Shown piece after piece: positions 18,886 through 62,687 of a stretch of DNA of 64,000 nt. This DNA is from a virus (lineage: Duplodnaviria; Caudoviricetes). Where the stretch lies: positions 47,991 through 111,990 of the IMG/VR virus record IMGVR_UViG_2908764845_000006, one strand, 5' to 3'. The notes under the pieces were generated by a model, which saw nothing but the letters and a program-made list of their open reading frames with translations, had not been told where the DNA came from and did no database searches. Made by a program: the position numbers and the translations under genes. The stretch's first letter is position 1. The number at the start of each line of letters is the position of its first letter.

Positions 18886-18911
18886 GGCCCCGTTCGCATC
18901 GGGGCCTTTTT
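18886..18911 (+). terminator. intrinsic terminator-like hairpin with TTCGCAT loop
   Basis: GGCCCCG-TTCGCAT-CGGGGCC-TTTTT. Confidence 0.65.
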
Positions 18912-18939
18912 CATGCCTGCCAACCAAGGAGACCACCCG

Positions 18940-19188
18940 ATGTCCACAACGCTCAACACCGACCTGTCGCGCCGCGCCCACCAGCTCGCGGCGATCGCCG
19001 CCGAGAACGCCAACAAGTTCATCCGCCGCGAGATGCAGGCCGGTGGCCTGTCCCGTCAGCAGATCGTCGCCGAGTGCGGCGCCGGGATGAAGGCGATCGA
19101 CTTCCTCGCCGACATCCGCCGCGTCCTGTCCATCCGCCCGACGGCGAGCGATCGCCGCGTGCTCAAGCTCGCCAAGTGCGATTTCTGA
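18940..19188 (+). CDS. hypothetical protein
   Basis: AAGGAGACC upstream. Confidence 0.7.
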   Translation: MSTTLNTDLSRRAHQLAAIAAENANKFIRREMQAGGLSRQQIVAECGAGMKAIDFLADIRRVLSIRPTASDRRVLKLAKCDF

Positions 19189-19198
19189 GGAGGCCGCA

Positions 19199-19393
19199 AT
19201 GACCAAGCGACGCAAGCTCACCTATCACGGCAAGCGCTTCAACCTGCGCATCAGCGACACACCCTTCGGACTCTTCGTCCACCTCGATCCGAAGAGGGCG
19301 CCGAAGCGCGGCGGCTACAAGACCAAGTCGTGGCGCTTCGCCACGTTCAAGCACGCGACGATGTTCTGCCAAGACGTCGTCCAAGACATCTGA
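19199..19393 (+). CDS. hypothetical basic protein
   Basis: GAGGAGG RBS. Confidence 0.65.
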   Translation: MTKRRKLTYHGKRFNLRISDTPFGLFVHLDPKRAPKRGGYKTKSWRFATFKHATMFCQDVVQDI

Positions 19394-19423
19394 ACCGCAA
19401 CCCCCGACACAAGGAGACCACCC

Positions 19424-19642
19424 GTGATCGACTTCTGCAACATCGACAATGCCAAGAGCTACGCCACCGAAGCGAACCTGATGAAGGCCCTCGCGACCCT
19501 GGGCCTCGACCAGATGCGACCGGTCATCGTGCGCAACCGGGAGGGGCGCTTCACCGCGATCTTCGGCCTCCACCTCTCGGGCATGGCGTGCAGCGGCAAC
19601 GTGATGGCCGCTGCCAACCACGGCTTCAAGACCATCAACTGA
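19424..19642 (+). CDS. hypothetical protein
   Basis: AAGGAGACC upstream of GTG. Confidence 0.7.
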   Translation: MIDFCNIDNAKSYATEANLMKALATLGLDQMRPVIVRNREGRFTAIFGLHLSGMACSGNVMAAANHGFKTIN

Positions 19643-20007
19643 GGGCAACGAACATGAACACGAACAACCGGCGGACGCGCTTTCCCGAACTCGCCTACGC
19701 CCAGCACGCCAAGGACCTGTGGCGGATCATCGCCACCGACACCGATCAGGCGGTTGGCCCGCACTACAGGACGAAGGCCGAACTGCTCGCCGATCTCGAC
19801 CGCTACGCCAAGGAATTTGGTTGCTGAAACTCACGTCCGAGCGCCGCCGATGTGCGGCGCTCCAGCGTGCGCTTCCTGCACGACCGTTTCGCAGACGGTT
19901 CCTCAAACTCAAGGAGACCATCCCATGTCCTACCAACAGAAGCTCGAACTACTCCGCAAGCTCGCCCTCCAGCAATACCGCCACGGCAAGTGAGAGGAGC
20001 GACGCAC

Positions 20008-20310
20008 ATGGCTGGCACCAACACGCACTACACGATCCGCGAAGCCAAGGCGATCCTGGCCCAGCACGGCATGACGATCTCGTCCGACGAGGGCGAGTAT
20101 CGCGTCGCCTTCAAGATCGAGCACCACTCGGCGAGCGCAAGCCACGCCAGCGGCTACTGGACGGTCGGTCGCAAGACCTTCACCGGCGCCGGCGCCGCGA
20201 TGGACGCCCGCAACGCCGCCGAGGGATCGTCCTACTACACCACCCAGCTGGTCGACGCGATCGGCACCGGCATCGAGATGGCGCGGCACGAAGCTGGGAG
20301 GGCCGCATGA
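20008..20310 (+). CDS. hypothetical protein
   Basis: GAGGAG RBS; ATGA overlap with next gene. Confidence 0.65.
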   Translation: MAGTNTHYTIREAKAILAQHGMTISSDEGEYRVAFKIEHHSASASHASGYWTVGRKTFTGAGAAMDARNAAEGSSYYTTQLVDAIGTGIEMARHEAGRAA

Positions 20311-20501
20311 CCCTCACGCAGCTGCAACGCTACGAGCTCGCCCGCCGCAAGCTGGCCGATGGCAACATCGCCTTCATGGAGATGGTCACCCACAAGACCA
20401 ATCCGATGACCCGCGAGGATCTCACCGCGCTGATCAAACTCCGGCCGGAGCGCTACTCGCGCTTCTCCGGCTGGCTCGACGTCCTTCCCTCCCGCAACTG
20501 A
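20307..20501 (+). CDS. hypothetical protein
   Basis: Translationally coupled ORF. Confidence 0.6.
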   Translation: MTLTQLQRYELARRKLADGNIAFMEMVTHKTNPMTREDLTALIKLRPERYSRFSGWLDVLPSRN

Positions 20502-20517
20502 CAAGGAGACCCCGACC

Positions 20518-20742
20518 ATGGCTACCAAGATCAAGACCTTCCGCCTCGGCTCGTCCCCAATGGTGTCCGCGCCCGGCATGGTGCGATGGGCGATCGCCGG
20601 CGCCAAGTTTCCGCGGGATCGCAAGACCGTCGCCAACGTCATCGCTCAGACGTGGAGCGTCCCGATGGCCGCAGCGATCAAGCTCGTCACCCAGACCGTG
20701 CCCTTCACGGTCGAGGGCGAGACCGTCGTGTTCACCGCCTGA
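20518..20742 (+). CDS. hypothetical protein
   Basis: AAGGAGACC upstream. Confidence 0.7.
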   Translation: MATKIKTFRLGSSPMVSAPGMVRWAIAGAKFPRDRKTVANVIAQTWSVPMAAAIKLVTQTVPFTVEGETVVFTA

Positions 20743-20755
20743 CAGGGAGCCCACC

Positions 20756-20998
20756 ATGAAAGTCTACCTGACCCGCACCAAGGCCGTGACCGTCGCCGAC
20801 TATCCCGCCGCCTCCAAGGCGGTGCGCGCCTTCATCGAGAAGGGCGATCTCGGCGCGGGCTGCGGCTCCTCGCTGGAGGCCTTCACCGGCGGCAACATCG
20901 TCGACGGCAAGGGCAAGATGATCGCCCACGTCTCCTACAACGGCCGCGTCTGGCCCGGCACCGAGTGGAAGCCGGGCCTCAAGCCGCTGTTCGGCTGA
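20756..20998 (+). CDS. hypothetical protein
   Basis: GGGAGCCC upstream; VSYNGRVW motif. Confidence 0.7.
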   Translation: MKVYLTRTKAVTVADYPAASKAVRAFIEKGDLGAGCGSSLEAFTGGNIVDGKGKMIAHVSYNGRVWPGTEWKPGLKPLFG

Positions 20999-21072
20999 CC
21001 CTCACCTCAACCCCCGATCTTCAACCCGGGCCGCCTTCGCAGGGCGGCCCTTTGCACAAGGAGACCATCCCA

Positions 21073-21525
21073 ATGACGACCAAAGCCATTTCCGCCGTCC
21101 TCGCCGACACCCGCAGCCCGGCTGCGCAGAAGGCATTCATCAACGCCTTCGCCGACGCGCCGCTGATCCCGCTCGAAGAGCAGATCGCGGACCTCGAGGC
21201 CAGGTTGGACGCCATGGTGCTCAAGGCCGAGACCGGCGCGCAGTGGGCCGAGATTTGCCGCATCGAGCGCAACGAGATGATCCCGCTGCTGCGCCAGAAA
21301 GCGGTGCCGGTCGACCCGATGCGCAAGACCGCCTCGTCGATCGAGCACGGCACCAAGTTCTCCAAGTCGCAGGTCCAGTGGATCATGGACCACGACTGGG
21401 CGGTGCGCTCGCTGATGGGCGCCGTCGTCGTGATCGACCGCTTCACCTACAACGGATCGGCCTACGCCGAGTATTTCGTCTGGGCCGGCACCTTCAACGA
21501 GCTGCGCGACTGGGCGGGGTACTGA
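21073..21525 (+). CDS. hypothetical protein
   Basis: Hairpin and AAGGAGACC upstream; ends LRDWAGY. Confidence 0.7.
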   Translation: MTTKAISAVLADTRSPAAQKAFINAFADAPLIPLEEQIADLEARLDAMVLKAETGAQWAEICRIERNEMIPLLRQKAVPVDPMRKTASSIEHGTKFSKSQVQWIMDHDWAVRSLMGAVVVIDRFTYNGSAYAEYFVWAGTFNELRDWAGY

Positions 21526-21528
21526 GCC

Positions 21529-21747
21529 GTGGCCCTGCACACCATGGACGTCGACCGCGGCTTTAGGCGTGAGACGATTGTCACCTGCTTGGTCGATATC
21601 TCCTCCGGCGTTGCCGGTGAGATCACCTGTATCGAATGCGGTGGCGATGGTGATTGGACCAAGTTTCACCCCGAGCCAGAGACGTTGACGGCGCCGATGC
21701 GGTGCATCGAGTGCAAGGGCACCGGGCGCATCTACGTGTCGATCTAG
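21529..21747 (+). CDS. small CxxCxGxG zinc-finger protein
   Basis: CIECGGDG...CIECKGTG. Confidence 0.6.
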   Translation: MALHTMDVDRGFRRETIVTCLVDISSGVAGEITCIECGGDGDWTKFHPEPETLTAPMRCIECKGTGRIYVSI

Positions 21748-21800
21748 GTGGTCCACCCCGGACACCTCTTTTCAACTCGCAACCCCAAGGAGACCATCCA

Positions 21801-22277
21801 ATGCGAAAGCCCAAGACAATCACCGTGCAGCGCGGCCGCGTCGTCGGAGAAGGCGCAACCAAGACGCTCGCCAACGCCGACCTCGCGAGCAAGATCGACT
21901 TCCTGTGCCACGCCGAGGGCGCGCACATCGAGGTGCGCTTCGGCCTCGTGCTGATCGTCTGTTCCGGCCCGACGGCCGAATGGAGCTACCAGGTCGTCGA
22001 CCCCGCCCATGAGAGGGAGGGCAAGGTGTTCTATCAGAACGGCCTCGGCGGAAACCTCACCATGCGTCAGGCGATCTCCAGGGTCCGCCTCTACGCCGCG
22101 CAGCGCGACTGGAAACCGCAGATCGGCGACGACGAGGGCTTCATCGCCCGCGCCGAGTGCCAATCCGAGCAGGAACGCGACCTGCGCCACTGGATCAAAT
22201 GGCAGCGCAGCTACGCCGATCTGATCAAAGCAGGCAAGACGCACGCCGAGGCCCACCAGCAGGCGACGGGGTACTGA
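21801..22277 (+). CDS. hypothetical protein
   Basis: AAGGAGACC upstream. Confidence 0.7.
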   Translation: MRKPKTITVQRGRVVGEGATKTLANADLASKIDFLCHAEGAHIEVRFGLVLIVCSGPTAEWSYQVVDPAHEREGKVFYQNGLGGNLTMRQAISRVRLYAAQRDWKPQIGDDEGFIARAECQSEQERDLRHWIKWQRSYADLIKAGKTHAEAHQQATGY

Positions 22278-22280
22278 GCG

Positions 22281-22557
22281 ATGACCCATCCCAACCTCCG
22301 CAACTTCATGGACCTGTCGACCGCGCATCTCTCGCCGACGACAAAGCGAGAAAGTCTCCGGCGAGTTCGCCCTCAACCACTGGGTCGCCGCCACGCCCTA
22401 CGGCTGGTTCCTGTACTGCGACGAGGAGAACGCCGAGGACTCGATCCCGGCCGATCTGTTCGCCTGCATGACCTACGCCCGCCAGAACGGCGCCGACTAC
22501 GTGCTGTTCGATCAGGACGCCGACGCGCTCGACGATCTGCCGACCTTCGAGAACTAG
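22281..22557 (+). pseudogene. frameshifted DUF5983-like gene
   Basis: MDLSTAHL in one frame; YGWF...LFDQDA..LPTF in another; shift near 22346. Confidence 0.6.
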
Positions 22558-22559
22558 CG

Positions 22560-22739
22560 ATGGGCCGGCACAAGGGCCGCGATCCTCCGAAGTCGCACTG
22601 CATCCGAGGTCACCGCCTGCACGGCAAGAACCTCTACGTCCAACCCGACGGCGCCCGCGTGTGCCGTCGGTGTCGCGCTCTGAGCAAGATGGACTACCTC
22701 CGCCGCCTTCGCGGCACATCACCAAGGAGAAAACGATGA
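22560..22739 (+). CDS. small Cys/His zinc-binding protein (HNH-associated type)
   Basis: SHCIRGH...RVCRRC. Confidence 0.55.
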   Translation: MGRHKGRDPPKSHCIRGHRLHGKNLYVQPDGARVCRRCRALSKMDYLRRLRGTSPRRKR

Positions 22740-23041
22740 TGACCATTGCATATGACGTGACCGTCCGCCGCATCGGATACGGCGGTGGCGACATCCGGCT
22801 CCACGTGTTCGCTGCCAGCGAGCAGATGGCAATGGATCGCGCCGTCGATCAAGCCAAGCGCAAGAGCGCCATGCCACCGCGTCACCGCCGCTACGCGGTG
22901 TTCGCTGCGGTGGCGTGCGAGGTGTCGCTCGACCAGAGCCGCACCCGCCACGCCGCCCCCTTCGCCAAGACCGACCGCGGCTTCATGCGCCGCGCCGAGC
23001 GCCAGTCGAAGCAGATCGTTCGCAGCGCCTGCTTCGCCTGA
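22736..23041 (+). CDS. hypothetical protein
   Basis: AAGGAGA RBS. Confidence 0.6.
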   Translation: MMTIAYDVTVRRIGYGGGDIRLHVFAASEQMAMDRAVDQAKRKSAMPPRHRRYAVFAAVACEVSLDQSRTRHAAPFAKTDRGFMRRAERQSKQIVRSACFA

Positions 23042-23072
23042 TCCACCAACCCAAGTCAGCAAGGAGACCACC

Positions 23073-23498
23073 ATGCCGAAAAGCAACTGCAAGCACTTCC
23101 CCAACGCCGATGACCACTGCCTCGTATGCGAGACCGAGCAGCGCGCGGCGATGCGGTCCAGCGTCTACAACGACGAGCGCTCCACGTTCGCGCTGCACGC
23201 CGTGACCGCCTTCCGAGATGTCTGCCCCGGCAGCCGGAACGAAGATGGCAGCCCGCTGATCGAGGAGGCCGTCGGCGACCTGATCGCCAACCTGATGCAC
23301 CTGTGCGTCAAGCACGGCGTCGACCCGCTCAAGCAGATCAAGAACGGCGTCTGCCACTTCGCGGTCGAGACCATCGAGCCCGACGGCGTGAGCCATGAGG
23401 CGCAGTTCAACTACACCGTCTACGCCAGACCGTACGCCTCCGGCGAGAGCTGGCAGCTGTTCGACTGGCGGAACCCGCCCGCATCGAGGGAGACGTGA
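23073..23498 (+). CDS. hypothetical protein
   Basis: AAGGAGACC upstream; VGDLIANLMH motif. Confidence 0.7.
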   Translation: MPKSNCKHFPNADDHCLVCETEQRAAMRSSVYNDERSTFALHAVTAFRDVCPGSRNEDGSPLIEEAVGDLIANLMHLCVKHGVDPLKQIKNGVCHFAVETIEPDGVSHEAQFNYTVYARPYASGESWQLFDWRNPPASRET

Positions 23499-23587
23499 GC
23501 GATGCCCGTCACGACCATCGCCGCCATCGTCCTCGCCTTCATCGTCATCAGCGCGCTCTGCGCGCATCGCTACGGGAGACCGCATCC

Positions 23588-23875
23588 ATGACCAAGACGC
23601 TCACGTCCGGCGACCGGGTCGCTTACGCCGCATCGTTCCTCAAGAGCACCGGGCAACACACCGGCGCCGCGCCACAGCGGCGCGGCACCTTTGTTTCCTA
23701 TTGGGTATCCAACCCGGACTTCGCCCGCGTGCACTGGGACGATTTCGAGCAGATCGCTCCTCAGCTCGCCGAGCAGTATGGCGATGATTACGTGGCCGAC
23801 GCCCGGTCCTGCGGATCACTCGTCCATGCCAAGAACATCGCAAAGATCGGGTCGGCGCGTTTCGCGCTGACGTGA
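23588..23875 (+). CDS. hypothetical protein
   Basis: GGGAGACC upstream. Confidence 0.65.
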   Translation: MTKTLTSGDRVAYAASFLKSTGQHTGAAPQRRGTFVSYWVSNPDFARVHWDDFEQIAPQLAEQYGDDYVADARSCGSLVHAKNIAKIGSARFALT

Positions 23876-24074
23876 CCGGCGTGTTCGAGGTCGTGGCGTC
23901 ATGAGCTACCACGAGCGGGACGTGCGTCCCACCGACTGGGTGCTGACGCTCGCTGACGGCACCACCAAGACCGTCACCATCTACGACAACCGCCATCTCC
24001 GCGAGGAGATGGCACGGCTCGGCGCCAAGCGCGCCGAGCCGACCGAGGCCATCTGACATCAACAGGAGACTGCC

Positions 24075-24320
24075 ATGAATACCGAGATCAAGACGCTCGA
24101 AGATTTCGAGCGCGCCTGCAACGCGCACGACCTCACCTACGCCTACTCAGATGATGGCGAATGCTACAGGCGAGGCCGCAACAGCGAGGCGCGCATCGAG
24201 AAGGCCGCGGAGAACTTCCCCCGCGCAGACGTGGAGCGCATCTGGAATGCGATGGTCGACCGCAGGCTGGTCGACTTTGCCCGTGCCGCCTTCTATTGGC
24301 GCTGGCCCAACAAGGGCTGA
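24075..24320 (+). CDS. hypothetical phage protein
   Basis: HDLTYAYSDD motif; CAGGAGAC upstream. Confidence 0.7.
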   Translation: MNTEIKTLEDFERACNAHDLTYAYSDDGECYRRGRNSEARIEKAAENFPRADVERIWNAMVDRRLVDFARAAFYWRWPNKG

Positions 24321-24377
24321 CCATCACCCCACCACCAAACCCGCCGTTTCGCAGACGGCAATCAAGGAGACCATCCC

Positions 24378-24766
24378 ATGAAGTCCATCGTCCCGAACTA
24401 CCCGATGCCCTCGCAGTCGATCCTCGTCCCCAACGAGACCGAGGTCCGCGTCCGCCTCTGGGCGACGTCCTCCGTAACCATCTCGTGGGTCGAGATGGGC
24501 ATGATCCTGGCCGCGCACGTTGTGCTCGGCTTCCTGATCGGCCTTGCGACGACGACCCGGCGGCATTCGCCGCCGCCGTCGTTGCGATCTGCTCGCGCTC
24601 CGGCGGATCGCCGGCGGACCGAGAACACCTCCAGCAGTTCGGAGCGACGTGTCTCAACGCCAGCATGAACGGCGCCGACGCCGCCCTTCGAGCGTTCCTC
24701 GCAGCTGACTGGGAGCTCTTCACCGGGCATCCGCCCTGTCAGTACGTCGCACCTCGCGACAAGTAA
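24378..24766 (+). pseudogene. probably frameshifted hypothetical gene
   Basis: Hairpin and AAGGAGACC start; plausible C-terminus lies in another frame from about 24547. Confidence 0.45.
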
Positions 24767-25368
24767 CCCACTCACCCCCGTTCGCAGCGGGCTCAACAAG
24801 GAGACCGCCATCATGACGAACGAAGATCGCCGACAGCACGGCCGCGCCGTGCTGCAGACTTACGAGGCCCTGCCGGGCGTCGAGACCCGCGCCGATGGCG
24901 CCCGACCTCCGCCACACCGTGTCGATCGACGTGTTCGCGAAAGCGGTCAGCCTGTCGGAGACGCACTTCCATGCCGAGGCAGGCCGATGAGGAAATCCCT
25001 AATTATCCAGATGACACCACAATACACAGCATCTAGGAATATAAGCTAAACAACTGATTTTGCGGCGCTTTCCATACCATGAGTTTTCAGAAGCTTGCGA
25101 GACGCAGCAACAGACGCAGTGATTGACGCCGAACCGAATCTCTGCGCATAAACGAACATCCGCTTGCAGGCGGGGTGTTGTCTGTTCCGTATCCAAGCGG
25201 GCGGATGTTCTGCCTAGAAGTCCCGCCTCGGCTCCACACCGGGGCGGGCACGGCCCCTTAAAAGGAGAGCCGGATCGCAAGCCCGAACTTGGGAATGCGG
25301 GAAGCGCAGTCAGATGCCTCCCCTCCTAAAGACAGGCGGCGATTCGGTCAACGGGAAACTGTGACTCG

Positions 25369-27640: not shown

Positions 27641-27683
27641 CCCGCCCCGTTTCGCAGACGGGCAACACCAGGAGACCAACCAC

Positions 27684-55577: not shown

Positions 55578-55624
55578 CGAGCGCCTTCCTCCCCTCCCAT
55601 TCCCACTATTCGGAGACCATCCAC

Positions 55625-56860
55625 ATGACGACGATCATCGACAATGACGATATCCGGGTGCGCACGCTGGAGGCGTTTGCCGGTGTTGCCGGCCCTGCCC
55701 CGTCCAACCTTCCTGCGACCCAGCCGCAGAGCTTCCTGCCCCCGGTGGATCGCGTTCACGGCGCCCAACAGGTGGCCGTCCGTCGCCACGAGCCGGACGT
55801 GCTGCGCAAGATCAAGGAGCTGGCGGCGGCTGCGGGTGAATATTTCTACTACCGCTTTCCCGTGAAAAATAAGGGCAAGACGGAATACATCGAAGGCCCG
55901 ACGATCAAGTGCGCCAACGCGGTCGCGCGTTTGTTCGGCAACTGCGATGTCGATTGCCGCTCGGTCGACATCGGCACCCACTGGGTGTTCCACGCGCGCT
56001 TCATGGACTTGGAGACCGGCTACTCGCTGACGCGGCCGCTGCAGCAACGCAAGACCCAGGCCACCGTGCGCGGCGATGCGGGGCGCGCCGAGGACATCGC
56101 GTACCAGATCGGCACATCGAAGGCGATCCGCAACGTCGTGACCAACGCGCTCGACACCTTCACCACCTTCGCGTGGCAAGAGGCGAAGATGTCGGTCGTC
56201 GAGACCGTCGGCAAGCAGATCGAGAAGTACAAGACCCGGGTCCAGATCCGATTGGACGAGATGGAGGTCGACCTCCATCGCGTCGAGGCTGTACGCGGTC
56301 GACCGTTGAAGGATTGGCTTGCCACCGATGTCGCGCGCACCATCGCCGAAATTCAGGCCGTCAACGACGGCATGGCGACGGCGGACGAAACCTGGCCGAA
56401 GAAGGATGACCAGAAGGCCGATGGCGACGGCAAGCTGTCGCAGTTCGCGAGCGACGCCAACAAGGCGGACGGCAACGCGGAGACCGTCGACCCCAAGACC
56501 GGCGAGGTCACCGACGGGGTCGCCAGCACCAACAACAGCGCGCAGGGCGATCAGCCCGCGCAGGGTTCGCAGACCGCCGAGGATGGCCCCCAGCCATCGG
56601 CATCTGCGACGGAGGACGGCGCGGCAGCGTCCGAAACCGCGGCGTCCTCCGCCAATTCCGAGCCGGAAGGCCCGGCCACCGAGGCCGAGTACAGCGACTA
56701 TGCGGTGGCGTGGTTCGCTGAGGCGAACAACGTCGAGGAAGTGCGCGCCCGCTGGGCTCGCGAAAAGTCGATGCGTGCGAAGGCCGGCGTCAAGCCGGAC
56801 ACCCTCACCAAGCTGGAAGGCCTGATGAAGGACACCGTCGCCCGGATCAAGAAGGGGTAG
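55625..56860 (+). CDS. putative single-strand annealing/recombination protein
   Basis: Follows YqaJ; EGPTIKCA...FGN, SKAIRN and VDPKTGEV motifs. Confidence 0.55.
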   Translation: MTTIIDNDDIRVRTLEAFAGVAGPAPSNLPATQPQSFLPPVDRVHGAQQVAVRRHEPDVLRKIKELAAAAGEYFYYRFPVKNKGKTEYIEGPTIKCANAVARLFGNCDVDCRSVDIGTHWVFHARFMDLETGYSLTRPLQQRKTQATVRGDAGRAEDIAYQIGTSKAIRNVVTNALDTFTTFAWQEAKMSVVETVGKQIEKYKTRVQIRLDEMEVDLHRVEAVRGRPLKDWLATDVARTIAEIQAVNDGMATADETWPKKDDQKADGDGKLSQFASDANKADGNAETVDPKTGEVTDGVASTNNSAQGDQPAQGSQTAEDGPQPSASATEDGAAASETAASSANSEPEGPATEAEYSDYAVAWFAEANNVEEVRARWAREKSMRAKAGVKPDTLTKLEGLMKDTVARIKKG

Positions 56861-57030
56861 CGCAGGGAGCAGAGCCAAACTCCCAAGAGGGGCACTGCGT
56901 GCGGCTCCGTAAACGGGAAGGCACCTCCGGGGTTCGTCAGTCTCTCTGCGTGGGTCGGACCACGGGCCGGTCAAGGTGACCAACGCGCGCAAACTACCGT
57001 GGGCGGGAAGCCGCACTTCTCGCCCACGGA
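56861..57030 (+). ncRNA. candidate structured RNA with pseudoknot
   Basis: Two stems plus an 8-nt complementarity between them. Confidence 0.45.
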
Positions 57031-57084
57031 CATCTCAATCGCCGGGCTTCGCAGGCCCGCATGGATTTTAGTCGGGGAACCAGC

Positions 57085-58059
57085 ATGGCGACGATCATCA
57101 ACTTGAAGGGGACCAAAGAGGCCCCGAAAAACTCTCGCTCCAGCATGGGGACACGGATCATCTCCATCGCCGGCGTCCAGCAGTGGAAGGTCCCGCCGTT
57201 CCAGCGTCCGGTGCGGGTCAATGCGAAGGTGCAGGAGGCCGCGCAGTCGACACGGGAAAACGAAGCCATCGAGGGCGTCATCACGCTGGGCCAGGTCAGG
57301 GGAGACCTCGCCTACTACATCGTTGACGGCCAGCACCGCATCGAGGGCTTTAAAATCTCCGGCATCGAGGAGGCGCTGGTCGACGTTCGCGTCGTCACCT
57401 TCGAGGACTTCGCCGAGATGGCGAACGAGTTCGTTAAGCTGAACTCGTCATTGGTTCGGATGCGACCGGACGACCTACTGCGCGGCATGGAGGACGCGAC
57501 CATCTCGCTGCAGCTTATCCGCAAGCATTGTCCTTTCGTCGGCTATGACCAGATCCGGCGCGCCTCGACCGGGGCGCCGATTGTGGGCATGTCCGTCATC
57601 CTCCGCTGTTGGGCCGGGTCGGCCGGTGAGACGCCGACATCAACGATGGCTGGTCAGTCAGTCTCGTCGCTCGCCAAGACCACGGACGAAACCAGCGCTC
57701 GGCAGTTGATCCAATTCCTCGGCAACGCCCATCAGGCATGGGGACGAGACCCTGAATATTACCGGCTGTGGGGCGCCCTGAACCTTTCGCTTTGCATGTG
57801 GCTGTACCGTCGCCTCGTTATCGACCGCGACCGGATGGGCAACAAGCGCGTCGTGGTGCTGAACCAGAACGAGTTCAAGCAGTGTTTGATGTCGGTCTCG
57901 GCGAGCGGCGATTACCTGCAGTGGCTAGTCGGCCGCAACATGACCGAACGGGATCGCAGCCCCGCCTACATGCGCCTCAAGGCCATCTTCCAGAAGCGCC
58001 TGCAAGAGATCACCCAGACCAAGTCGGCGCTGCCAGCTCCGGCGTGGTCGTCGCGCTGA
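57085..58059 (+). CDS. ParB/Srx-like (DGQHR) domain protein
   Basis: FQRP...YIVDGQHR...F.KLN. Confidence 0.75.
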
Positions 58060-58120
58060 CAATCTACCCTATGGCGGGGCTTCGCAGGCCGCGCCCAGCA
58101 CCATCAAGGAGACCATCTAC

Positions 58121-58627
58121 GTGGCTGGATCAGTGAATAAGGTAATTTTGGTCGGCAATCTCGGGAAGGACCCCGAGGTGCGCCGCACCCAGGATGGCAG
58201 GCCGATTGCGAACCTGTCGATCGCGACGAGCGAGAGTTGGCGCGACAAGGGCACCGGCGAGCGTCGCGAAAAGACCGAGTGGCACCGCGTTGTAATTTTT
58301 AACGAGGGCCTCGCCAAGGTCGCCGAGCAGTATCTCAAGAAGGGCGCCAAGGTCTACATCGAGGGCCAGCTGCAAACGCGCAAGTGGACCGACCAGAGCG
58401 GCGTCGAGAAGTATTCGACCGAGGTCGTGCTGCAGGGCTTCAACTCGACGATGACCATGCTCTCGGATGGTGGCGGTGGCCGTGGTGGTGGCGGCGGAGA
58501 TGACCGCGGCTCCGGTGGCGGCAACTACGGTGGTGGTGTCGGTGGCGCCGCGCCGCGTCGCGGCGGCCAGGACAACGGCGGCCAGAGCTCGCGGTTCGAC
58601 AACATGGACGACGATATTCCGTTCTAG
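58121..58627 (+). CDS. ssb: single-stranded DNA-binding protein
   Basis: [14 protein letters not shown]...TEWHRV...DDDIPF. Confidence 0.97.
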
Positions 58628-58809
58628 GACTCAGCAAACCCCGCTTCGCAGGCGGGGTCCTACACGGAGTCCGCGGCGCTGCGGATCAGTCTGACCTGCA
58701 CGCGAGAAGGTTTGCTGCGCTCAGCCCGCCAGCGCGACGCGACGGACGTGGCCCTTCTCTGCCGAATTGACTACCTGCTCGAAGTGATCGGAAGGACCCC
58801 GGTGGGAGC

Positions 58810-59205
58810 ATGAGCGGGATCGTGATCGCCAACGAGGAGGATCGCATCTTCCTGTGCCGCATGGTGATGGGCGCCAAGCCGGGCACCCTGATCGAGATGC
58901 ATGTCGATCTCGCCTCCGACGCCCAGCGCAAGAAGATGTGGGCGATGCTCGGCGAGGTGTCCAAGCAGGTGCCGCACGTCGACATGAACGGCAACGCCAA
59001 GTTCTACGCGCCCGAGCAGTGGAAAATTCTCTTCATGCACGCCTGCGGCCAGGAGGTGGAGATGATGCCATCGCTCGATGGCTCGACCTTCCTGCCCTAC
59101 GAGGGTCGGTCCTCGAAGATGAAGTCTCGAGATATGGGCGAACTTCTGTCCTGCATCGAGGCGTGGGGCGTGCAGAACGGCGTCACCTTCAAGGAGATCA
59201 GTTGA
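58810..59205 (+). CDS. NinB-family recombination protein
   Basis: QRKKMWAML.EVSKQV...WK..F...SSKM...IEAWG. Confidence 0.8.
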   Translation: MSGIVIANEEDRIFLCRMVMGAKPGTLIEMHVDLASDAQRKKMWAMLGEVSKQVPHVDMNGNAKFYAPEQWKILFMHACGQEVEMMPSLDGSTFLPYEGRSSKMKSRDMGELLSCIEAWGVQNGVTFKEIS

Positions 59206-59368
59206 TGTTTGACATGCGTGTGGAATTGGCCGCTCAAGCCATTCACAAGCTCGTCTGCGATCGGTCTGGTCGCGGCCGTGAGTGGAAGGCCATTCCGGAA
59301 AGCCTGAAGGCATCCTTTCGCGAAGAAGCTAGAGCAGCTCTTGCGGCGGCCGACACTATGGAGGTCCG

Positions 59369-59677
59369 ATGAAGCCCGAGCAGCTGAAGATGTTCGACCT
59401 GCCGGATGTCGAGGATCGCGTCATCGACGTGCCGGCCGAGAAGCAGCCCGCGCCAAAGCGCGCGGGCCAGCGCAACCGGCAGCCATCGCTCGCGGTCCGC
59501 CAGTACGAGGTCAAGAGCGGCGGAGACTGCTTCCGCGTGCAGGCGGCCTCGCCGTCGGCGGCGAAGTACATCGCATTCAGGTTTGCGCGGAGCATGGGCC
59601 AGTACCTCTACGAGGGCGGCTTCATGGCGTTCGTCTCCGGCGGCCTGCAGGTCAGGGAAGAGAGGAGATCGAAGTGA
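59369..59677 (+). CDS. hypothetical protein
   Basis: Coupled ORF. Confidence 0.55.
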   Translation: MKPEQLKMFDLPDVEDRVIDVPAEKQPAPKRAGQRNRQPSLAVRQYEVKSGGDCFRVQAASPSAAKYIAFRFARSMGQYLYEGGFMAFVSGGLQVREERRSK

Positions 59678-59750
59678 GCGTTGAACAGATCGTCGTTGTC
59701 CTGATGGCCCTCTCGGTCGTCAGCGTCTTTTTCTACTTGGGATTTGGCAA

Positions 59751-60968
59751 ATGAGCATCATCGCAACCGAGCGACTGCAACAGATCGAACAGCTCGACAC
59801 CAACGGCCGATACGGCCGCCTCGCGCGCGAGGCGCTGGAGGCCCTGCCCGTGACTTTTCAGGGTCGCGTCGCGGAATGGATGAAGGCGTGCTTCTCCATC
59901 GACGTCTGTCGCGACGGCATCGAGCGCAATCACCGCTTCCTCGAAGAGTCGCTGGAACTCGTCCAATCGCTCGGCTGCACGGCGAGCGAGGCGCATCAGC
60001 TCGTCGACTACGTGTTCGGTCGCCCGGTCGGGGAGCCCAAGCAGGAGATGGGCGGCGTCATGGTCACGCTCGCGGCCCTCGCCTGCGCGCACGACCTTGA
60101 CATGATGCCGGCGGCCGAGACCGAGCTGGTGCGCGTCTGGACCCGGATCGACCAGATCCGCGCGAAGCAGGCCACCAAGCCGAAGCACTCGCCACTGCCC
60201 CAGCATGTCGAGGCAGATGCTGGGACGGCTCAGGCGGCTCTGCAGGAAATCATCAAGTCAGCGTCCCACAAGGACGCAATCAATATCGCGATCGAAGCAA
60301 GGAGAGAGTACAAAACGTCCCCAGCCGCGCCAGTCGTCACCGTCGATATGTCCGCGGAGCTGATGGATGCGGCGCAGCGGACGAGCAAGCTGCGCGATAG
60401 CATCGTCGAAGCCTGCGACCTGCTGGCCGAACGGAAATACGGGAGCCCTGCCCGGTCACCCGGTCACAACGCCCGACTCCTGCTGGAGCGGGCACTGGAG
60501 AACGTGCCGAAGGCGCCGGCCACACCCGGCGCAGACGCCGCGCGCACCATCTCTGAGCTTCGCGCGGGCCTGCAGGCGGCAATTCGCGCCGCCAAGCTCG
60601 CCCTGTTCGTGGTCCGTAAGCAGAATGTGATGCCCAACGGCAGCTGGGCCAACGGCTTCGACCGCGATCTCGAAGCAGCCGATGCAGCGCTCGCAGGGAC
60701 GCCACAACATCCGGATCTGCGCGTGGCCGTCGCCCGCGCCATCGTCGAGGTGACCAACCGCTGGATCAAGCCGAACTTCCCGGCTGATCACGTGCTGCCG
60801 ACCTTCGACCAGCTGCGCAAGCAGGAGAAGCGGCTCAATCTGGAGTTTGCTGACGCCGCGATCGCGACGGTGAAGAACGCCGGGGCCGAGCCAAAGCCGG
60901 AGCGCCAGTGGACCGGTCCCGGTCACCTCGAGCAGACCGGCTACATTGATCCGGAGCCCGGCCGATGA
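59751..60968 (+). CDS. mosaic protein with MazG-like N-terminal domain
   Basis: RFLEESLELVQ...QEMGGVMVTL. Confidence 0.6.
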   Translation: MSIIATERLQQIEQLDTNGRYGRLAREALEALPVTFQGRVAEWMKACFSIDVCRDGIERNHRFLEESLELVQSLGCTASEAHQLVDYVFGRPVGEPKQEMGGVMVTLAALACAHDLDMMPAAETELVRVWTRIDQIRAKQATKPKHSPLPQHVEADAGTAQAALQEIIKSASHKDAINIAIEARREYKTSPAAPVVTVDMSAELMDAAQRTSKLRDSIVEACDLLAERKYGSPARSPGHNARLLLERALENVPKAPATPGADAARTISELRAGLQAAIRAAKLALFVVRKQNVMPNGSWANGFDRDLEAADAALAGTPQHPDLRVAVARAIVEVTNRWIKPNFPADHVLPTFDQLRKQEKRLNLEFADAAIATVKNAGAEPKPERQWTGPGHLEQTGYIDPEPGR

Positions 60969-61128
60969 ACCTCCGCATCCTCAAGAAGCTGTCCGCGCGC
61001 GCCGCTCTACAAGAAGCGTGCGTATCACCTGGGTCTGAAAGACAAGCCGTCGCGGCTGAAGAGCCGCGGCTTCGAGGGCGTCAAGCCGCAGCGTACCGCG
61101 TCGACACCCATCAACAAATGGAGAGGGT

Positions 61129-61689
61129 ATGACTGAGATCGAGCGTTACATCATCCGGCCCGAGGCGCACCGCGGCGAATGGGCCTTCATCTATGTCGAC
61201 GAGGAGAAGAGCATGTTCATGGCCTACTCGTCGTTCGGAACCTACGCATATTGCTGGCCTCACCGGGGGCCCGAGACCTTGAAGGAGTTCCTGCTCGACC
61301 TCGAGTTCGACTACTTCATGGGAAAGACGCGTGGGCTCGAGAGCAAGCAGTTTGATTTCAACGGCACCATCGAGGGCATGAGAAAGCACGTCCGCGAAGC
61401 GCAACGCCGCAAGATGCTGAGCAAGGACAAGGCTCGCGACGCCTTGGTCGCCATCGACGACCTGAAGTGGATGGATAACCATCAGAGCGTCGACGTGTTC
61501 GTCGATCGCGTCTATGCGGACAAGGCGATCTGCGAGGCCTATCGTCACGACTTCGAGGACGTCATCAAGAACCGCCCTGACCCTCAGTGCGTTGGCTTCT
61601 GGCAGAAGATCTGGCCGGAGTTCGTCAAGGCGATCACGCCCAAGCCGGTCGCGGCGGTGGTCGAGCAGCCGGTCGAGGTGATGGCATGA
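61129..61689 (+). CDS. hypothetical protein
   Basis: GGAGAGG RBS; FGTYAYCW...DYFMGK. Confidence 0.65.
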   Translation: MTEIERYIIRPEAHRGEWAFIYVDEEKSMFMAYSSFGTYAYCWPHRGPETLKEFLLDLEFDYFMGKTRGLESKQFDFNGTIEGMRKHVREAQRRKMLSKDKARDALVAIDDLKWMDNHQSVDVFVDRVYADKAICEAYRHDFEDVIKNRPDPQCVGFWQKIWPEFVKAITPKPVAAVVEQPVEVMA

Positions 61690-62186
61690 CAACGCGCCGC
61701 GATCTGTTCAAGGTCGGCGCGGCTGCGGCCGCCGCCGTCGCACTGCCCTCCTCGGGCCCCGTCGTTGCGGGCGAGCTGGTCGAGCCCGCGGTCGCTGTAG
61801 CCCCGGCGACGCCCTACGCGACCTATCCGTGGCGCTGGTGGATCAGCCTCGACGGCGAGTCCTTCATCGAAGAGTTCGATACCGAGGCCGAGGCCATCAA
61901 GGCGGCCAAGGGTTACGGAGAGAAGGCCATTGTGGCTGAGTGCCAGCAGCAGGACTTCAGCCTTCATGTCTACGGCAGCGACGTCATCGAGATGCTCTAC
62001 CAGAACAACGAGGAGGACATCGGCGATGGCGAGTTCTTCGACTGCACCAAGGAGCAGTCGGACGAGCTCGGCCAGGTCGTGACCGCCGCGATCGAGGCGT
62101 GGGCCGCGAAGCACAAGCTCAATCTGACGGCATGGACGTTCGGTCAGACCCGCAACCGCACCGAGATCCCAGAGGAGGTCGCCTGA
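61686..62186 (+). CDS. acidic protein with twin-arginine-like N-terminus
   Basis: MTTRRDLFKVGAAAAAAVAL. Confidence 0.6.
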   Translation: MTTRRDLFKVGAAAAAAVALPSSGPVVAGELVEPAVAVAPATPYATYPWRWWISLDGESFIEEFDTEAEAIKAAKGYGEKAIVAECQQQDFSLHVYGSDVIEMLYQNNEEDIGDGEFFDCTKEQSDELGQVVTAAIEAWAAKHKLNLTAWTFGQTRNRTEIPEEVA

Positions 62187-62632
62187 TGGACCTGCCGCAG
62201 ATCCCCGACGACGACGCCGACTTCACGCCCGATCTGGCGCGCGAGATCATCGCCAAGTACCAGAAGATCATCACCGACCTGACCGACCCCACTCTGAGGA
62301 GCATGCGGCTCGATGATGGCGGCTTCAACATGGAGCTGGGCGGCGAGGTCGTGAAGCGGATGGCGATCATGATGACGACGTGGTTCCGCGAGAGCGGCGC
62401 CAAGAACTACGTCGAGATCGCCATCAACGCCATCGACCCGCCCTTCGAGAAGTTCCTGTTCTATGTGCAGAAGCGCGGCGACGGTGCGTTGACGCCGGGT
62501 GAGGCTTTGAGCGAGGCGAAGGCCGAGATCGCCCGCTACGCCAGCCAGGTCGCGGACCTCGAAGAGGAGTGCGATCGCCGCTACCAAGAAACCGAGAAGC
62601 TGCGTGAGCAGCTTGCAGTAAGTGTAAAATAG
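62186..62632 (+). CDS. hypothetical protein
   Basis: GAGGAGG RBS; coupled ORF. Confidence 0.6.
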   Translation: MDLPQIPDDDADFTPDLAREIIAKYQKIITDLTDPTLRSMRLDDGGFNMELGGEVVKRMAIMMTTWFRESGAKNYVEIAINAIDPPFEKFLFYVQKRGDGALTPGEALSEAKAEIARYASQVADLEEECDRRYQETEKLREQLAVSVK

Positions 62633-62687
62633 ACCCCGGCCGGGGCCCGCTTCGCAGGCGGGCCCCTTGCTGGCAAGGAGACCGATC

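What the first reader, a model, noticed from the sequence alone, without database searches (positions are those of the whole stretch)
18886..62666. Family of 28 coding-strand hairpins with a near-invariant TTCGCAG loop and freely varying stems
Seen: 28 hairpins, 26 with the exact loop TTCGCAG, one TTCGCAT and one TTCGCAC. Stems of about 4-15 bp differ in sequence but keep their pairing, e.g. GGCCCCGC/GCGGGGCC (loop 32033), GCGGT/ACCGC (38840), CGCCTG/CAGGCG (40568), GGGGCTGGAG/CTCCAGCCCC (42216). They flip to the minus strand where genes do (45573, 46258, 46452), nearly all sit between a stop codon and the next RBS, and most lack a U-tract. I found none in the 1-16 kb leftward arm. Established: lambda boxB/nut sites and HK022 put are phage RNA hairpins that drive antitermination, but occur only about twice per genome. 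Inference: a fixed loop, variable stem and strand polarity indicate a protein-recognised RNA (or ssDNA) element reiterated before many early genes. It could reload an antiterminator, direct mRNA processing or stabilisation, or control translation. I do not recognise it as a described motif.
Basis: partly seen in the sequence, partly recalled or inferred. Interest (0 to 1): 0.9.

Follow-up and report, generated by a model that had tools for sequence, protein, structure and literature searches.

The report
Prophage early-gene leader hairpin tag
A large prophage puts the same small RNA hairpin, always with the loop UUCGCAG, followed by the same ribosome-binding box in front of most blocks of its non-structural genes, which looks like an undescribed shared control tag whose reader is still unknown.

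Summary
The window has 27 hairpins of 4 or more pairs with loop TTCGCAG (26) or TTCGCAT (1), plus one 3-pair copy. No other 7-base loop recurs more than twice. All lie on the coding strand, in gaps between gene blocks of the non-structural arm. Most sit 5-7 bases ahead of a fixed ribosome-binding box, CAAGGAGACCA, which is absent from the structural arm.

The same two-part module occurs in four other viral records and five metagenome contigs. Some of these share no detectable early protein with this phage. Loop variants are essentially absent among about 115 copies.

Only 3 of 100 copies have a U-tract, so they are not terminators. Rfam has no match.

New here: every carrier has one "startless" master copy, a long hairpin followed by the box with no start codon.

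Best reading: an RNA leader tag that one conserved partner reads to co-regulate translation or stability of these genes. The partner is unknown. An antisense RNA from the master copy is possible but unproven.

The closest described thing is the SAS/ESAS signal of Cluster K mycobacteriophages, also unexplained. The scan noted this same loop family earlier on another genome (e1-6205557).

The parts
18886..18906 (+). First hairpin of the rightward operon: 7 pairs, loop TTCGCAT, followed by TTTTT. The only terminator-like copy in the window. Orthologues in G001 and G002 have TTCGCAG and a T-run.
19882..19900 (+). Leader hairpin, 6 pairs, loop TTCGCAG, then box and ATG
21028..21050 (+). Leader hairpin, 8 pairs, then box and ATG
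24343..24359 (+). Leader hairpin, 5 pairs, then box and ATG
24777..24791 (+). Leader hairpin, 4 pairs, then box and ATG
27646..27662 (+). Leader hairpin, 5 pairs, then CAGGAGACC and ATG
28264..28284 (+). Leader hairpin, 7 pairs, box 23 bases downstream
30645..30659 (+). Leader hairpin, 4 inner pairs plus an outer extension, ahead of the 322-aa gene
31692..31708 (+). Leader hairpin, 5 inner pairs plus an outer extension
32025..32047 (+). Leader hairpin, 8 pairs, ahead of the DUF4942/methyltransferase gene. The G001 orthologue has a different stem and the same loop.
33893..33909 (+). Leader hairpin, 5 pairs
34377..34391 (+). Leader hairpin, 4 pairs
35473..35487 (+). Leader hairpin, 4 pairs
36763..36785 (+). 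Leader hairpin, 8 pairs, ahead of the AAA ATPase gene. Orthologues in G001 and G002 have other stems.
38835..38851 (+). Leader hairpin, 5 pairs
39728..39752 (+). Leader hairpin, 9 pairs, box 24 bases downstream
40562..40580 (+). Leader hairpin, 6 pairs
41611..41629 (+). Leader hairpin, 6 pairs
42205..42233 (+). Master copy, hairpin part: the longest stem in the window (11 pairs), preceded by an A-run. Read on the minus strand it scores as an intrinsic terminator whose loop is the complement, CTGCGAA.
42254..42267 (+). Master copy, startless box CAAGGAGACCATCC. No start codon follows. It is identical in all 11 master elements aligned and sits inside a second small hairpin.
42633..42651 (+). Second startless copy, hairpin part (6 inner pairs plus an outer extension); seen only in this genome
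42680..42693 (+). Second startless box, CAAGGAGACCATCC
46251..46271 (-). Hairpin, 7 pairs, on the minus strand in the leftward operon. It lies inside the ORF 46173-46427 as I called it, and no box follows.
46447..46463 (-). Leader hairpin, 5 pairs, minus strand, then box and ATG of a leftward gene
51489..51507 (-). Hairpin, 6 pairs with an atypical stem, inside the 3' part of the GcrA-like ORF. Membership is doubtful.
54507..54521 (+). Hairpin, 4 inner pairs plus an outer extension, ahead of the YqaJ-like exonuclease gene; no consensus box
57043..57059 (+). Hairpin, 5 pairs; weak Shine-Dalgarno downstream
58078..58090 (+). 3-pair copy, then box and GTG of the SSB gene. Orthologues in G001 and G002 have 5- and 6-pair stems.
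58638..58658 (+). Hairpin, 7 pairs, directly after the SSB stop codon, with no box after it
62642..62666 (+). Leader hairpin, 9 pairs, then box and ATG of a small ORF ahead of the integrase
18560..62683 (.). Span that holds the ribosome-binding box. AAGGAGACC occurs 31 times here (28 on +, 3 on -) and 0 times in the first 66 kb of the record. Consensus CAAGGAGACCA, with the start codon 6-10 bases after GGAG.

Best explanation
The hairpins are the first half of a two-part RNA leader tag: a stem of free sequence presenting the loop (U)UCGCAG, then, usually 5-7 bases later, the extended Shine-Dalgarno box CAAGGAGACCA and a start codon. The tag is written in front of most translationally independent gene blocks of the non-structural (early, replication, recombination, accessory) arm of a roughly 110-kb temperate phage of an alphaproteobacterium. 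It is absent from the structural arm.

I read it as an operator that lets one conserved trans-acting partner recognise the loop on the polycistronic mRNA. The partner would set, for the whole gene class together, how well the adjacent ribosome-binding site is used and hence how long the message lives.

Shown: the family, its strand, its position, its restriction to one gene class, its invariance and its spread to other phages.

Inferred: that RNA is the active form, that a single partner reads it, and that the output is translation or stability. The partner, whether host protein, host RNA, phage RNA or a small phage protein, is not identified.
For: - **Strand.** The loop word lies on the coding strand wherever a box and start codon follow, in five genomes.
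- **Coupling to the box.** 87 of 100 copies have AAGGAG within 45 bases. In 42 of those 87 the gap is 5-7 bases, which puts the stem 17-24 bases before the start codon.
- **Position in gaps.** 26 of 41 same-strand gaps of 35 bases or more hold a copy, against 0 of 30 shorter gaps (my own rough gene calls).
- **Restriction of the box.** AAGGAGACC occurs 31 of 31 times in the non-structural arm and 0 times in 66 kb of the structural arm.
- **Box flanks.** The conserved flanks (C at -2; CC then A after AGGAGA) are not complementary to the 16S 3' end read from an alphaproteobacterium. More than ribosome pairing therefore constrains the box.
- **Loop invariance.** 97 copies have TTCGCAG, 15 have TCGCAG and 3 have TTCGCAT. 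Other one-letter variants occur at background (5 or fewer each, mostly without a box).
- **Orthologous junctions.** The same loop sits on different stems ahead of the methyltransferase, AAA ATPase, 279-aa protein and SSB genes.
- **Folding.** In the folding model 90% of 86 modules form the stem with probability above 0.5, and the loop centre stays open (0.92).
- **Not terminators.** Only 3 of 100 have a U-tract.
- **Spread.** The module is the only nucleotide similarity between this phage group and G003/G004, apart from one ParA-like gene. No early protein is shared at the sensitivities used. This argues for a conserved reader.
Against: - No RNA data: no RNA run is listed for this DNA, so transcription, ends and processing are unseen.
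- No candidate RNA-binding protein emerged from 58 window ORFs (plus 8 from G003) scanned against Pfam and 10 window ORFs, most of them already in the Pfam set, scanned against PHROGs.
- The G-U versus A-C test for the active strand was inconclusive.
- Predicted accessibility of the Shine-Dalgarno is only 0.49 on average.
- A few copies do not fit a pure leader role: 58638 follows a stop codon with no box, and 46251 and 51489 fall inside ORFs as I called them.
- 15 of 41 large gaps have no copy.
Confidence: 0.5

Rival explanations
1. Self-contained RNA-against-RNA control. The opposite strand of the startless master copy gives a small antisense RNA. Its terminator loop, CUGCGAA, can kiss every UUCGCAG loop. 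Its segment GGAUGGUCUCCUUG can mask every box. This would shut down, or time, the whole gene class in trans, like the C4 RNA of phage P1 but with about 30 targets.
For: - Every carrier has a master copy: the 5 viral records and 5 further metagenome contigs.
- Its box is 14 of 14 identical in all 11 aligned elements and has no start codon.
- Of 118 hairpins, only the master copies of G000, G001 and G002 have 6 or more A in the 9 bases upstream. They also have the longest or near-longest stems.
- The terminator scan lists 42232-42206 on the minus strand.
- The separate terminator at 43168-43154 already ends the convergent operon.
- It would explain both the loop invariance and the box flanks that the 16S end does not explain.
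- Recalled, not checked here: the loop begins UUCG, which fits the YUNR U-turn motif described for antisense-RNA recognition loops.
- C4 as a phage antisense repressor is described in PMC8198154 (passages read).
Against: - No promoter-like site on that strand in any of the six elements scanned.
- The U-run is weak or absent in G003, L273, L283 and L294, so the terminator reading holds for one lineage only.
- With 11 sequences, the gene-sense consensus fold (-28.1) is better than the antisense fold (-23.1).
- The apparent G-U advantage of the antisense strand came from a structure predicted on that strand.
- Two conserved plus-sense genes lie between the hairpin and the convergent operon.
Confidence: 0.15
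2. mRNA punctuation. The hairpins mark sites where the long early transcripts are cut and/or where the pieces are protected. They would act as a 3' stem for the upstream block and a 5' stem for the downstream block, as RNase III sites do in T7 early mRNA. The box would be the mark for a RegB-like nuclease that later inactivates early messages.
For: - The copies lie between a stop codon and the next ribosome-binding site, in C/A-rich, G-poor linkers.
- Copy 58638 follows a stop codon with no box.
- In one G000/G002 pair, the homologous sequence runs through the upstream gene and the hairpin and diverges after it.
- T4 RegB cuts an extended Shine-Dalgarno consensus (GG*AGRAYARAA) of early genes only (PMC3014915, passages read). 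That is a precedent for a class-specific extended box.
Against: - Stems of 4-5 pairs (64 of 118) are weak barriers to exonucleases.
- Protection alone needs no invariant loop.
- No nuclease candidate was found.
- No RNA-end data.
Confidence: 0.15
3. Antitermination reloading. A lambda-N-like protein binds each loop on the nascent RNA and keeps RNA polymerase termination-resistant along the operon.
For: - Fixed loop on a short free stem resembles boxB.
- The first copy (18886) is a real terminator-like hairpin just after the first gene, conserved in three genomes.
- In this phage a terminator ahead of the terminase genes carries the same loop.
Against: - About 30 sites, each tied to a ribosome-binding site at 5-7 bases, is not what processive antitermination needs.
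- No boxA-like companion was seen; the upstream flank shows only composition bias.
- The late terminator's loop is not conserved. The G002 orthologue has loop GATGA and G001 has another hairpin.
- No shared small protein across the carriers.
Confidence: 0.07
4. DNA-level element. The hairpins form on single-stranded DNA (lagging-strand template or displaced strand). They would serve priming, nicking or cassette exchange, like integron attC sites, HUH-nuclease origins or REP elements.
For: - Conserved loop on a variable stem is the anatomy of rolling-circle origins (recalled).
- Co-orientation with genes could also reflect fork direction.
- The modules sit at the boundaries of mosaic gene blocks and are the only DNA shared between unrelated phages.
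Against: - The structural arm, which is replicated too, has only one copy.
- The copies are positioned relative to ribosome-binding sites at 5-7 bases.
- The identical stretches (7 and 11 bases) are very short for recombination.
- No HUH nuclease or integron integrase was seen among the ORFs scanned.
- None of 401 alphaproteobacterial genomes sampled carries more than a single chance match, unlike REP families.
Confidence: 0.05
5. The reader is a host tRNA. The loop is the exact complement of the anticodon loop of tRNA-Arg(ACG, read as ICG), so leaders could kiss that abundant, universally conserved tRNA.
For: - In the alphaproteobacterial genome G005 the tRNA-Arg(ACG) anticodon loop reads CTACGAA. 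With inosine at position 34 this pairs with all seven loop letters of UUCGCAG.
- A universal partner would explain identical loops in phages with no shared proteins.
Against: - Complementarity of a Y-U-N-N-N-R-N loop to some anticodon loop is not rare by chance (my estimate: about 1 in 100, and higher for loops of this type).
- The 6-base-loop copies lack the first U.
- No known function is served.
- The loop equally resembles the anticodon loop of tRNA-Ala(CGC), TTCGCAA, so this may be numerology.
Confidence: 0.03

Closest known systems
[quoted passage not shown] 2011, PMC3203893; passages read)
   Same: - A fixed asymmetric word containing AGGAG lies 3-7 bases before the start codons of 11-19 genes.
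- It is restricted to the non-structural half of the genome and is in one orientation.
- Its conserved flanks cannot pair with 16S rRNA.
- About half the sites carry an inverted repeat just upstream.
- It is attached to genes of different families.
- Its function is unknown and was still untested in 2025 (PMC12699233, passages read).
   Different: - In ESAS the two 17-bp arms are the conserved part and the spacer varies, and the authors found no support for RNA pairing.
- Here the stems are free and pair, and the loop is the conserved part.
- The words, hosts (Actinobacteria versus Alphaproteobacteria) and phages are unrelated.
- The startless master copy has at most a loose parallel: a single reverse-oriented SAS without a gene.
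Lambda-type nut boxB hairpins bound by N (recalled knowledge)
   Same: A short stem of free sequence presents a fixed loop on the nascent phage early RNA for a trans-acting partner.
   Different: - boxB occurs about twice per genome, has a 5-base GNRA-like loop and is paired with boxA.
- It acts on RNA polymerase.
- It is not tied to ribosome-binding sites.
T4 RegB and RegA targets (PMC3014915; passages read)
   Same: One phage factor acts on the translation-initiation regions of many early mRNAs at once. The RegB site is an extended Shine-Dalgarno word that early genes carry and late genes do not.
   Different: T4 targets are unstructured. No hairpin or fixed loop is involved. No RegA or RegB homologue was seen among the ORFs scanned here.
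Antisense-RNA immunity of phages P1/P7 (C4 RNA; PMC8198154, passages read) and plasmid kissing-loop control (recalled)
   Same: A short RNA pairs with short complementary words near a ribosome-binding site. Recognition loops are about 7 bases on stems whose sequence is free.
   Different: Those systems have one or two targets. Here there would be about 30, and the antisense RNA is only inferred.
Earlier notes of this scan on other DNA: e1-6205557 (same UUCGCAG family) and e1-5906304, e1-5906313, e1-6228510 (CAGCAC or CUGCCA loops with other boxes)
   Same: The same architecture: fixed loop, free stem and fixed ribosome-binding box ahead of early or replication genes of temperate phages.
   Different: These are unchecked AI notes, not literature. 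The loops and boxes differ between families.

Membership tests
Intrinsic (Rho-independent) terminators | G+C-rich hairpin directly followed by a U-tract | tested here: not met
   3 of 100 copies have 5 or more T in the next 8 bases. In the window only 18886-18906 does.
Lambda-type nut site (boxA + boxB) | 5-base GNRA-like loop on a 5-pair stem | tested here: not met
   The loop has 6-7 bases, (U)UCGCAG, and stems are 4-16 pairs.
Lambda-type nut site (boxA + boxB) | A conserved boxA word a few bases upstream, and one or two sites per operon | tested here: not met
   The upstream 12 bases show only C/A richness and no fixed word. There are about 28 sites in the window.
Lambda-type nut site (boxA + boxB) | An arginine-rich N-like protein that binds the loop | not testable with these tools
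   No family match among the small ORFs scanned. N-like proteins are too divergent for such scans.
SAS/ESAS of Cluster K mycobacteriophages | The 13-base word GGGATAGGAGCCC 3-7 bases before start codons | tested here: not met
   The box here is CAAGGAGACCA. Only the AGGAG core is common (PMC3203893).
SAS/ESAS of Cluster K mycobacteriophages | Restriction to non-structural genes, one orientation, and flanks not explained by 16S pairing | tested here: met
   This is likeness of behaviour, not homology.
SAS/ESAS of Cluster K mycobacteriophages | ESAS: conserved 17-bp inverted-repeat arms with a variable spacer | tested here: not met
   Here the arms vary freely and the 'spacer' (the loop) is invariant.
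REP / REPIN / BIME repeats | Conserved stem sequence, many copies spread over the host chromosome, often as inverted doublets | tested here: not met
   Stems are not conserved. Copies are single and co-oriented. None of 401 alphaproteobacterial genomes sampled has more than one pattern match. The true host chromosome was not available.
Any Rfam family | Match to a curated covariance model | tested here: not met
   Only two tRNAs reach gathering scores in the whole window. At E up to 1, window 30500-43300 gives one chance miRNA hit.
Integron attC sites | Imperfect hairpin with conserved R/L boxes and extrahelical bases, plus an IntI integrase | tested here: not met
   Stems are perfect, short and of free sequence. 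The only integrase seen is an ordinary phage-type tyrosine recombinase at the record's end.
Antisense-RNA kissing-loop control | A partner RNA whose exposed loop is complementary to the target loop | tested here: inconclusive
   The complement exists only as the opposite strand of the family's own copies. The master copy looks like a terminator on that strand in three genomes but not in the others, and no promoter was found.
T4 RegB/RegA regulons | RegB or RegA protein encoded by the phage | tested here: not met
   No such family among the window ORFs scanned (58 by Pfam, 10 by PHROGs). Not all small ORFs were scanned.

The most novel reading that the evidence does not exclude
The tag is a self-contained RNA-RNA regulon. 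Each phage that uses it carries one startless master copy. Its antisense transcript holds both the anti-loop (CUGCGAA, in a terminator hairpin) and the anti-box (GGAUGGUCUCCUUG). One small phage RNA could therefore dock by loop-loop kissing on about 30 leaders and mask their ribosome-binding sites. This would switch the whole non-structural gene class off in the lysogen or late in infection. It would also explain why similar 'fixed loop plus fixed box' codes keep turning up in unrelated temperate phages, Cluster K SAS perhaps included.
Probability: 0.15. Interest if true: 0.85.

Novelty: new variant of a known kind. Interest (0 to 1): 0.62.

Why it matters
Temperate phages must switch large sets of early genes on and off together. 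The textbook means are promoters, repressors and antiterminators. A tag written into the leader of each gene block would be a different layer of control, acting on the message.

Its only described counterpart, the SAS/ESAS signal of Cluster K mycobacteriophages, has stayed unexplained since 2011 (PMC3203893; PMC12699233).

This family is a cleaner case:
- The loop is invariant in about 115 copies.
- The stems co-vary, which points to RNA.
- The tag is shared by phages with no common early proteins.
- There is a distinct startless copy that can be deleted or mutated.

That makes the question "who reads it, and what happens" directly testable. It also offers a compact, portable handle for co-regulating many genes.

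Tried and rejected
1. **Known RNA families.** Rfam at gathering scores gave only two tRNAs. The E-value mode on 30500-43300 gave one chance hit.

2. **Close relatives among isolated phages.** Megablast of 20 kb found none. tblastn of the primase-helicase found only distant hits, at most 36% identity.

3. **Genome contigs pattern scan.** Only 4 of the 120 loci held any hairpin at all, none beside a box. The scan was not informative.

4. **Alphaproteobacterial genomes.** A sample of 401 gave 7 single matches and no carrier. This means not found in those searched, not absent.

5. **Singletons in IMG/VR.** 13 loci were checked and all are chance.

6. **RNA evidence.** No RNA holder is listed.

7. 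**Reader protein.** Pfam on 58 window ORFs and 8 G003 ORFs, and PHROGs on 10 window ORFs, gave no RNA-binding or nuclease candidate.
   - An ASCH-domain protein exists only in G003/G004.
   - A zinc-ribbon-like 74-aa protein exists only in G003 and G001.

8. **Pairing of the loop with 16S rRNA.** The only G-U-tolerant complement in an alphaproteobacterial 16S is CTGCGG, 8 bases before the anti-Shine-Dalgarno. About 3 such matches are expected by chance. From recall, it lies in the stem of helix 45. Rejected.

9. **G-U versus A-C test of the active strand.** Among 12 internal mismatches followed by at least 2 more pairs, 3 were G-T/T-G and 4 were C-A/A-C. Inconclusive.

10. **Promoter for an antisense RNA.** None found.

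11. **'The same loop gates the late operon' (note e1-6221231).** The loop at that terminator is not conserved in G001 or G002.

12. **A peptide read through the startless box.** My own reading of the sequences printed puts the box in different frames in different lineages. Rejected.

13. **Literature.** Searches for TTCGCAG with hairpin (280 papers, 15 listed), for UUCGCAG (92 papers, 15 listed), and for phage / intergenic / stem-loop / conserved loop / early genes (30 papers, 25 listed) showed nothing on this motif. Supplements were not seen.

14. **Rows dropped.**
    - TTCGCAA-loop hits were left out of the alignment.
    - Copies with fewer than 4 pairs were left out of the counts, except 58078.
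    - Gene calls are my own GC3-based calls with manual edits.

Full report
**What the DNA is.** The window is the last 64 kb of a 111,990-base IMG/VR provirus record.

- The left 66 kb of the record is mostly leftward and carries the structural genes. The terminase-like protein is 72-75% identical in two other large proviruses, G001 and G002.
- The right arm, window 18.5-62.7 kb, holds about 80 mostly small genes. Those with a family match are:
  - a DUF4942/methyltransferase;
  - an AAA ATPase;
  - a primase-helicase-like protein;
  - a YqaJ-like exonuclease;
  - SSB;
  - NinB;
  - a RuvC-like resolvase;
  - an HTH repressor-like protein;
  - a GcrA-like regulator;
  - an integrase at the very end.
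- GcrA is, from recall, specific to Alphaproteobacteria, so the host is probably one. I did not identify it.

**The observation.**
- TTCGCAG is three-fold over-represented in the window: 38 against 12.8 expected, and 0 of 100 shuffles reach 38. The excess is confined to the right arm.
- Among all hairpins of the record with a 7-base loop and at least 5 Watson-Crick pairs, this loop occurs 21 times. Apart from its complement, no other loop occurs more than twice.
- I count 27 copies with at least 4 pairs in the window (26 TTCGCAG, 1 TTCGCAT) and one 3-pair copy followed by the box.
- None lies in window 1-16 kb.
- One extra copy, with 16 pairs, lies ahead of the terminase genes outside the window.

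**Anatomy.** The hairpin is half of a module.
- Upstream there is usually a stop codon and 5-15 C/A-rich bases.
- Downstream, the word AAGGAG follows within 45 bases in 87 of 100 copies from five genomes.
  - The gap is 5-7 bases in 42 of those 87.
  - The start codon lies 6-10 bases after GGAG.
- The box consensus is CAAGGAGACCA.
- AAGGAGACC occurs 31 times in the record, all in the right arm on the local coding strand, and never in the 66 kb of the left arm.
- The conserved flanks of the box do not continue the complementarity to the 16S 3' end, as read in an alphaproteobacterial genome.
- By my own gene calls, 26 of 41 same-strand gaps of 35 bases or more hold a hairpin and none of 30 shorter gaps does. 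The tag therefore stands in front of blocks of tightly coupled genes.
- Only 3 of 100 copies have a U-tract.
- Stems are 4-5 pairs in 64 of 118 copies.
- The folding model forms the stem in 90% of 86 modules. It always adds a U-G and a U-A pair inside the 'loop', leaving a CGC triloop. The true loop geometry is therefore open.

**Spread and invariance.**
- A gapped pattern (loop word, 8-30 bases, box) finds multi-copy carriers in only four other IMG/VR records. These are G001 (125.5 kb) and G002 (136 kb), both proviruses, and the metagenomic contigs G003 and G004. Thirteen single-hit loci of the stricter scan were checked and are chance.
- G001 and G002 are relatives of this phage, with many early proteins 40-90% identical. 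They carry 33 and 29 copies.
- At orthologous junctions the loop is the same and the stems differ. This holds ahead of the methyltransferase, the AAA ATPase, the 279-aa protein and SSB.
- G003 and G004 are related to each other. With this phage they share only a ParA-like gene, two structural-arm proteins (a 650-aa protein of unknown function, weakly, and the 987-aa head protease-scaffold), and the 35-55-base modules themselves.
- Over the five genomes there are 97 copies with TTCGCAG, 15 with the 6-base loop TCGCAG and 3 with TTCGCAT. Every other one-letter variant is at background.
- The formal pair count gives 89.3% paired against 42.9% in shuffles and 35-42% for slid partners. The caveat is that the inner four pairs were my selection criterion.
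- None of 401 sampled alphaproteobacterial genomes carries more than one pattern match.

**The master copy (new here).**
- Each of the five genomes has one copy that stands out. It has the longest or near-longest stem (10-13 pairs). After 14-22 bases comes the box in the extended form CAAGGAGACCATCC, and no start codon follows.
- This genome has a second such copy at 42633-42693.
- A pattern built from this element found 28 metagenome loci. Twenty-two are chance matches without a hairpin. Six are real: one is G004's own contig and five are new (L273, L276, L283, L290, L294). Three of the new ones also carry ordinary leader modules.
- In all 11 aligned elements the 14-base box is identical. The long stem shows compensatory changes at 8-9 pairs, and the box contains a small GGA/UCC hairpin. 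With the first six sequences an outer stem around the box was also predicted.
- In G000, G001 and G002 the long hairpin is preceded by an A-run. They are the only 3 of 118 copies with 6 or more A in the 9 bases upstream. On the other strand the hairpin therefore scores as an intrinsic terminator whose loop is the exact complement of all other loops. The convergent leftward operon has its own terminator 900 bases away.

**The antisense idea the master copy suggests.** Against it:
- no promoter-like site on that strand;
- the U-run is weak or missing in the G003-like lineages;
- with 11 sequences the gene-sense fold is the better one.

I keep it as the most novel reading, at about 15%.

**What it most likely does.** Five features point to an RNA operator read by one conserved partner that acts on translation initiation and hence on message stability:
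- strand specificity;
- a fixed short distance to the ribosome-binding site;
- restriction to one gene class;
- weak stems;
- an absolutely fixed loop.

T4 offers precedents for class-wide control at early ribosome-binding sites. RegA represses about 30 mRNAs. RegB cuts an extended Shine-Dalgarno consensus that late genes lack (PMC3014915, passages).

Unrelated phages share the loop but no early protein. A host-encoded or RNA partner therefore fits somewhat better than a fast-evolving phage protein.

I found no candidate reader, and no RNA run exists to look at.

The rivals and their odds are:
- processing or stabilising punctuation, 0.15;
- the antisense RNA, 0.15;
- antitermination reloading, 0.07;
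- a single-stranded-DNA role, 0.05;
- kissing with tRNA-Arg, 0.03.

The late-operon terminator that carries the loop in this phage has other loops in G001 and G002, so it is not part of the conserved system.

**Comparison with what is known.**
- No Rfam family matches, and three full-text searches found nothing on the motif.
- The closest described feature is SAS/ESAS of Cluster K mycobacteriophages (PMC3203893, passages). It shares the placement, the restriction to non-structural genes and the unexplained flanks around AGGAG.
- The logic is inverted, though. In ESAS the arms are conserved and the spacer is free, and the authors favoured DNA binding. SAS/ESAS function was still untested in 2025 (PMC12699233, passages).
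- BoxB, RegA/RegB targets and the P1 C4 antisense RNA (PMC8198154, passages) are functional analogies only.
- The scan itself noted the same UUCGCAG family on another genome (e1-6205557) and similar fixed-loop, fixed-box families with other words. This suggests a wider, undescribed class in temperate phages.

**Verdict.** The feature is real and strongly non-random. It is a two-part leader tag that I did not find in print or in Rfam. Its mechanism is open but directly testable. I rate it a new variant of a known but unexplained kind, with interest 0.62.

Noticed in passing
window 24900-27690: A lower-GC stretch (0.59-0.60 against about 0.65) interrupts the rightward operon. It holds an IS1595-family (ISXO2-like) transposase ORF on the minus strand at 26618-27685 and is probably an insertion sequence. 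The match of this ORF to G001 overlaps the G001 match of the overlapping plus-strand ORF 27332-27640.
   Followed up: partly
window 51417-51917 (-): A phage-encoded GcrA-like regulator (Pfam PF07750, E 1.2e-20), conserved in G001 and G002. It points to an alphaproteobacterial host and to possible use of methylation-dependent promoters.
   Followed up: partly
window 16230-16275 (-): Three direct repeats of GGGACA(T/A)T a few bases apart, one of them overlapping a stemless TTCGCAG. They lie in the switch region between the leftward and rightward arms and are candidate operator or iteron sites.
   Followed up: no
G001 about 61556 and 62287; G002 about 47855 (loci L245, L248): A second small family of hairpins or palindromes with a conserved stem, GCGGCG-CATGT-CGCCGC, lies near the start of the early operon ahead of box-bearing genes. 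Here the arms, not the loop, are conserved, so these look like DNA operators.
   Followed up: no
window 42326-42609: The small gene after the master copy changes reading frame relative to its G001 orthologue. The N-terminus is in one frame and the conserved WVLVID...CDEWWD part in another. This could be an indel, a sequencing error or a decaying gene.
   Followed up: partly
record 46220-46258 (-), 1.7 kb before the window: A 16-pair hairpin with the UUCGCAG loop lies ahead of the terminase genes. It looks like a two-way terminator. The orthologous terminator in G002 has loop GATGA and G001 has another hairpin, so the loop there is specific to this phage.
   Followed up: yes
all copies; G005 tRNA loci L298-L327: The loop UUCGCAG is the full complement of the anticodon loop of tRNA-Arg(ACG) if position 34 is inosine (CTACGAA in G005). 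It also differs in one letter from the anticodon loop of tRNA-Ala(CGC) (TTCGCAA). This may be coincidence.
   Followed up: partly
L249 14782-15006 (+) and G001 about 39780-39930: A 74-aa cysteine-rich (zinc-ribbon-like) protein is the only small early protein shared between G003 and G001. It is not found in this window.
   Followed up: partly
L249 13015-17471 (G003), with matches in G004: The hairpin-bearing part of G003 encodes two ParB-like proteins and an ASCH-domain protein; all three have matches in G004. A ParA-like gene is seen in G003 only. These contigs may be phage-plasmids.
   Followed up: partly
window 43154-43168 (-): A terminator-like hairpin with a T-run ends the leftward primase operon. 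It sits 14 bases after the end of the last rightward gene, giving a convergent junction.
   Followed up: no
window 7280-7356 and 8889-8964 (-): Two phage-borne tRNA genes, Met (CAT) and Phe (GAA), lie in the leftward arm.
   Followed up: no
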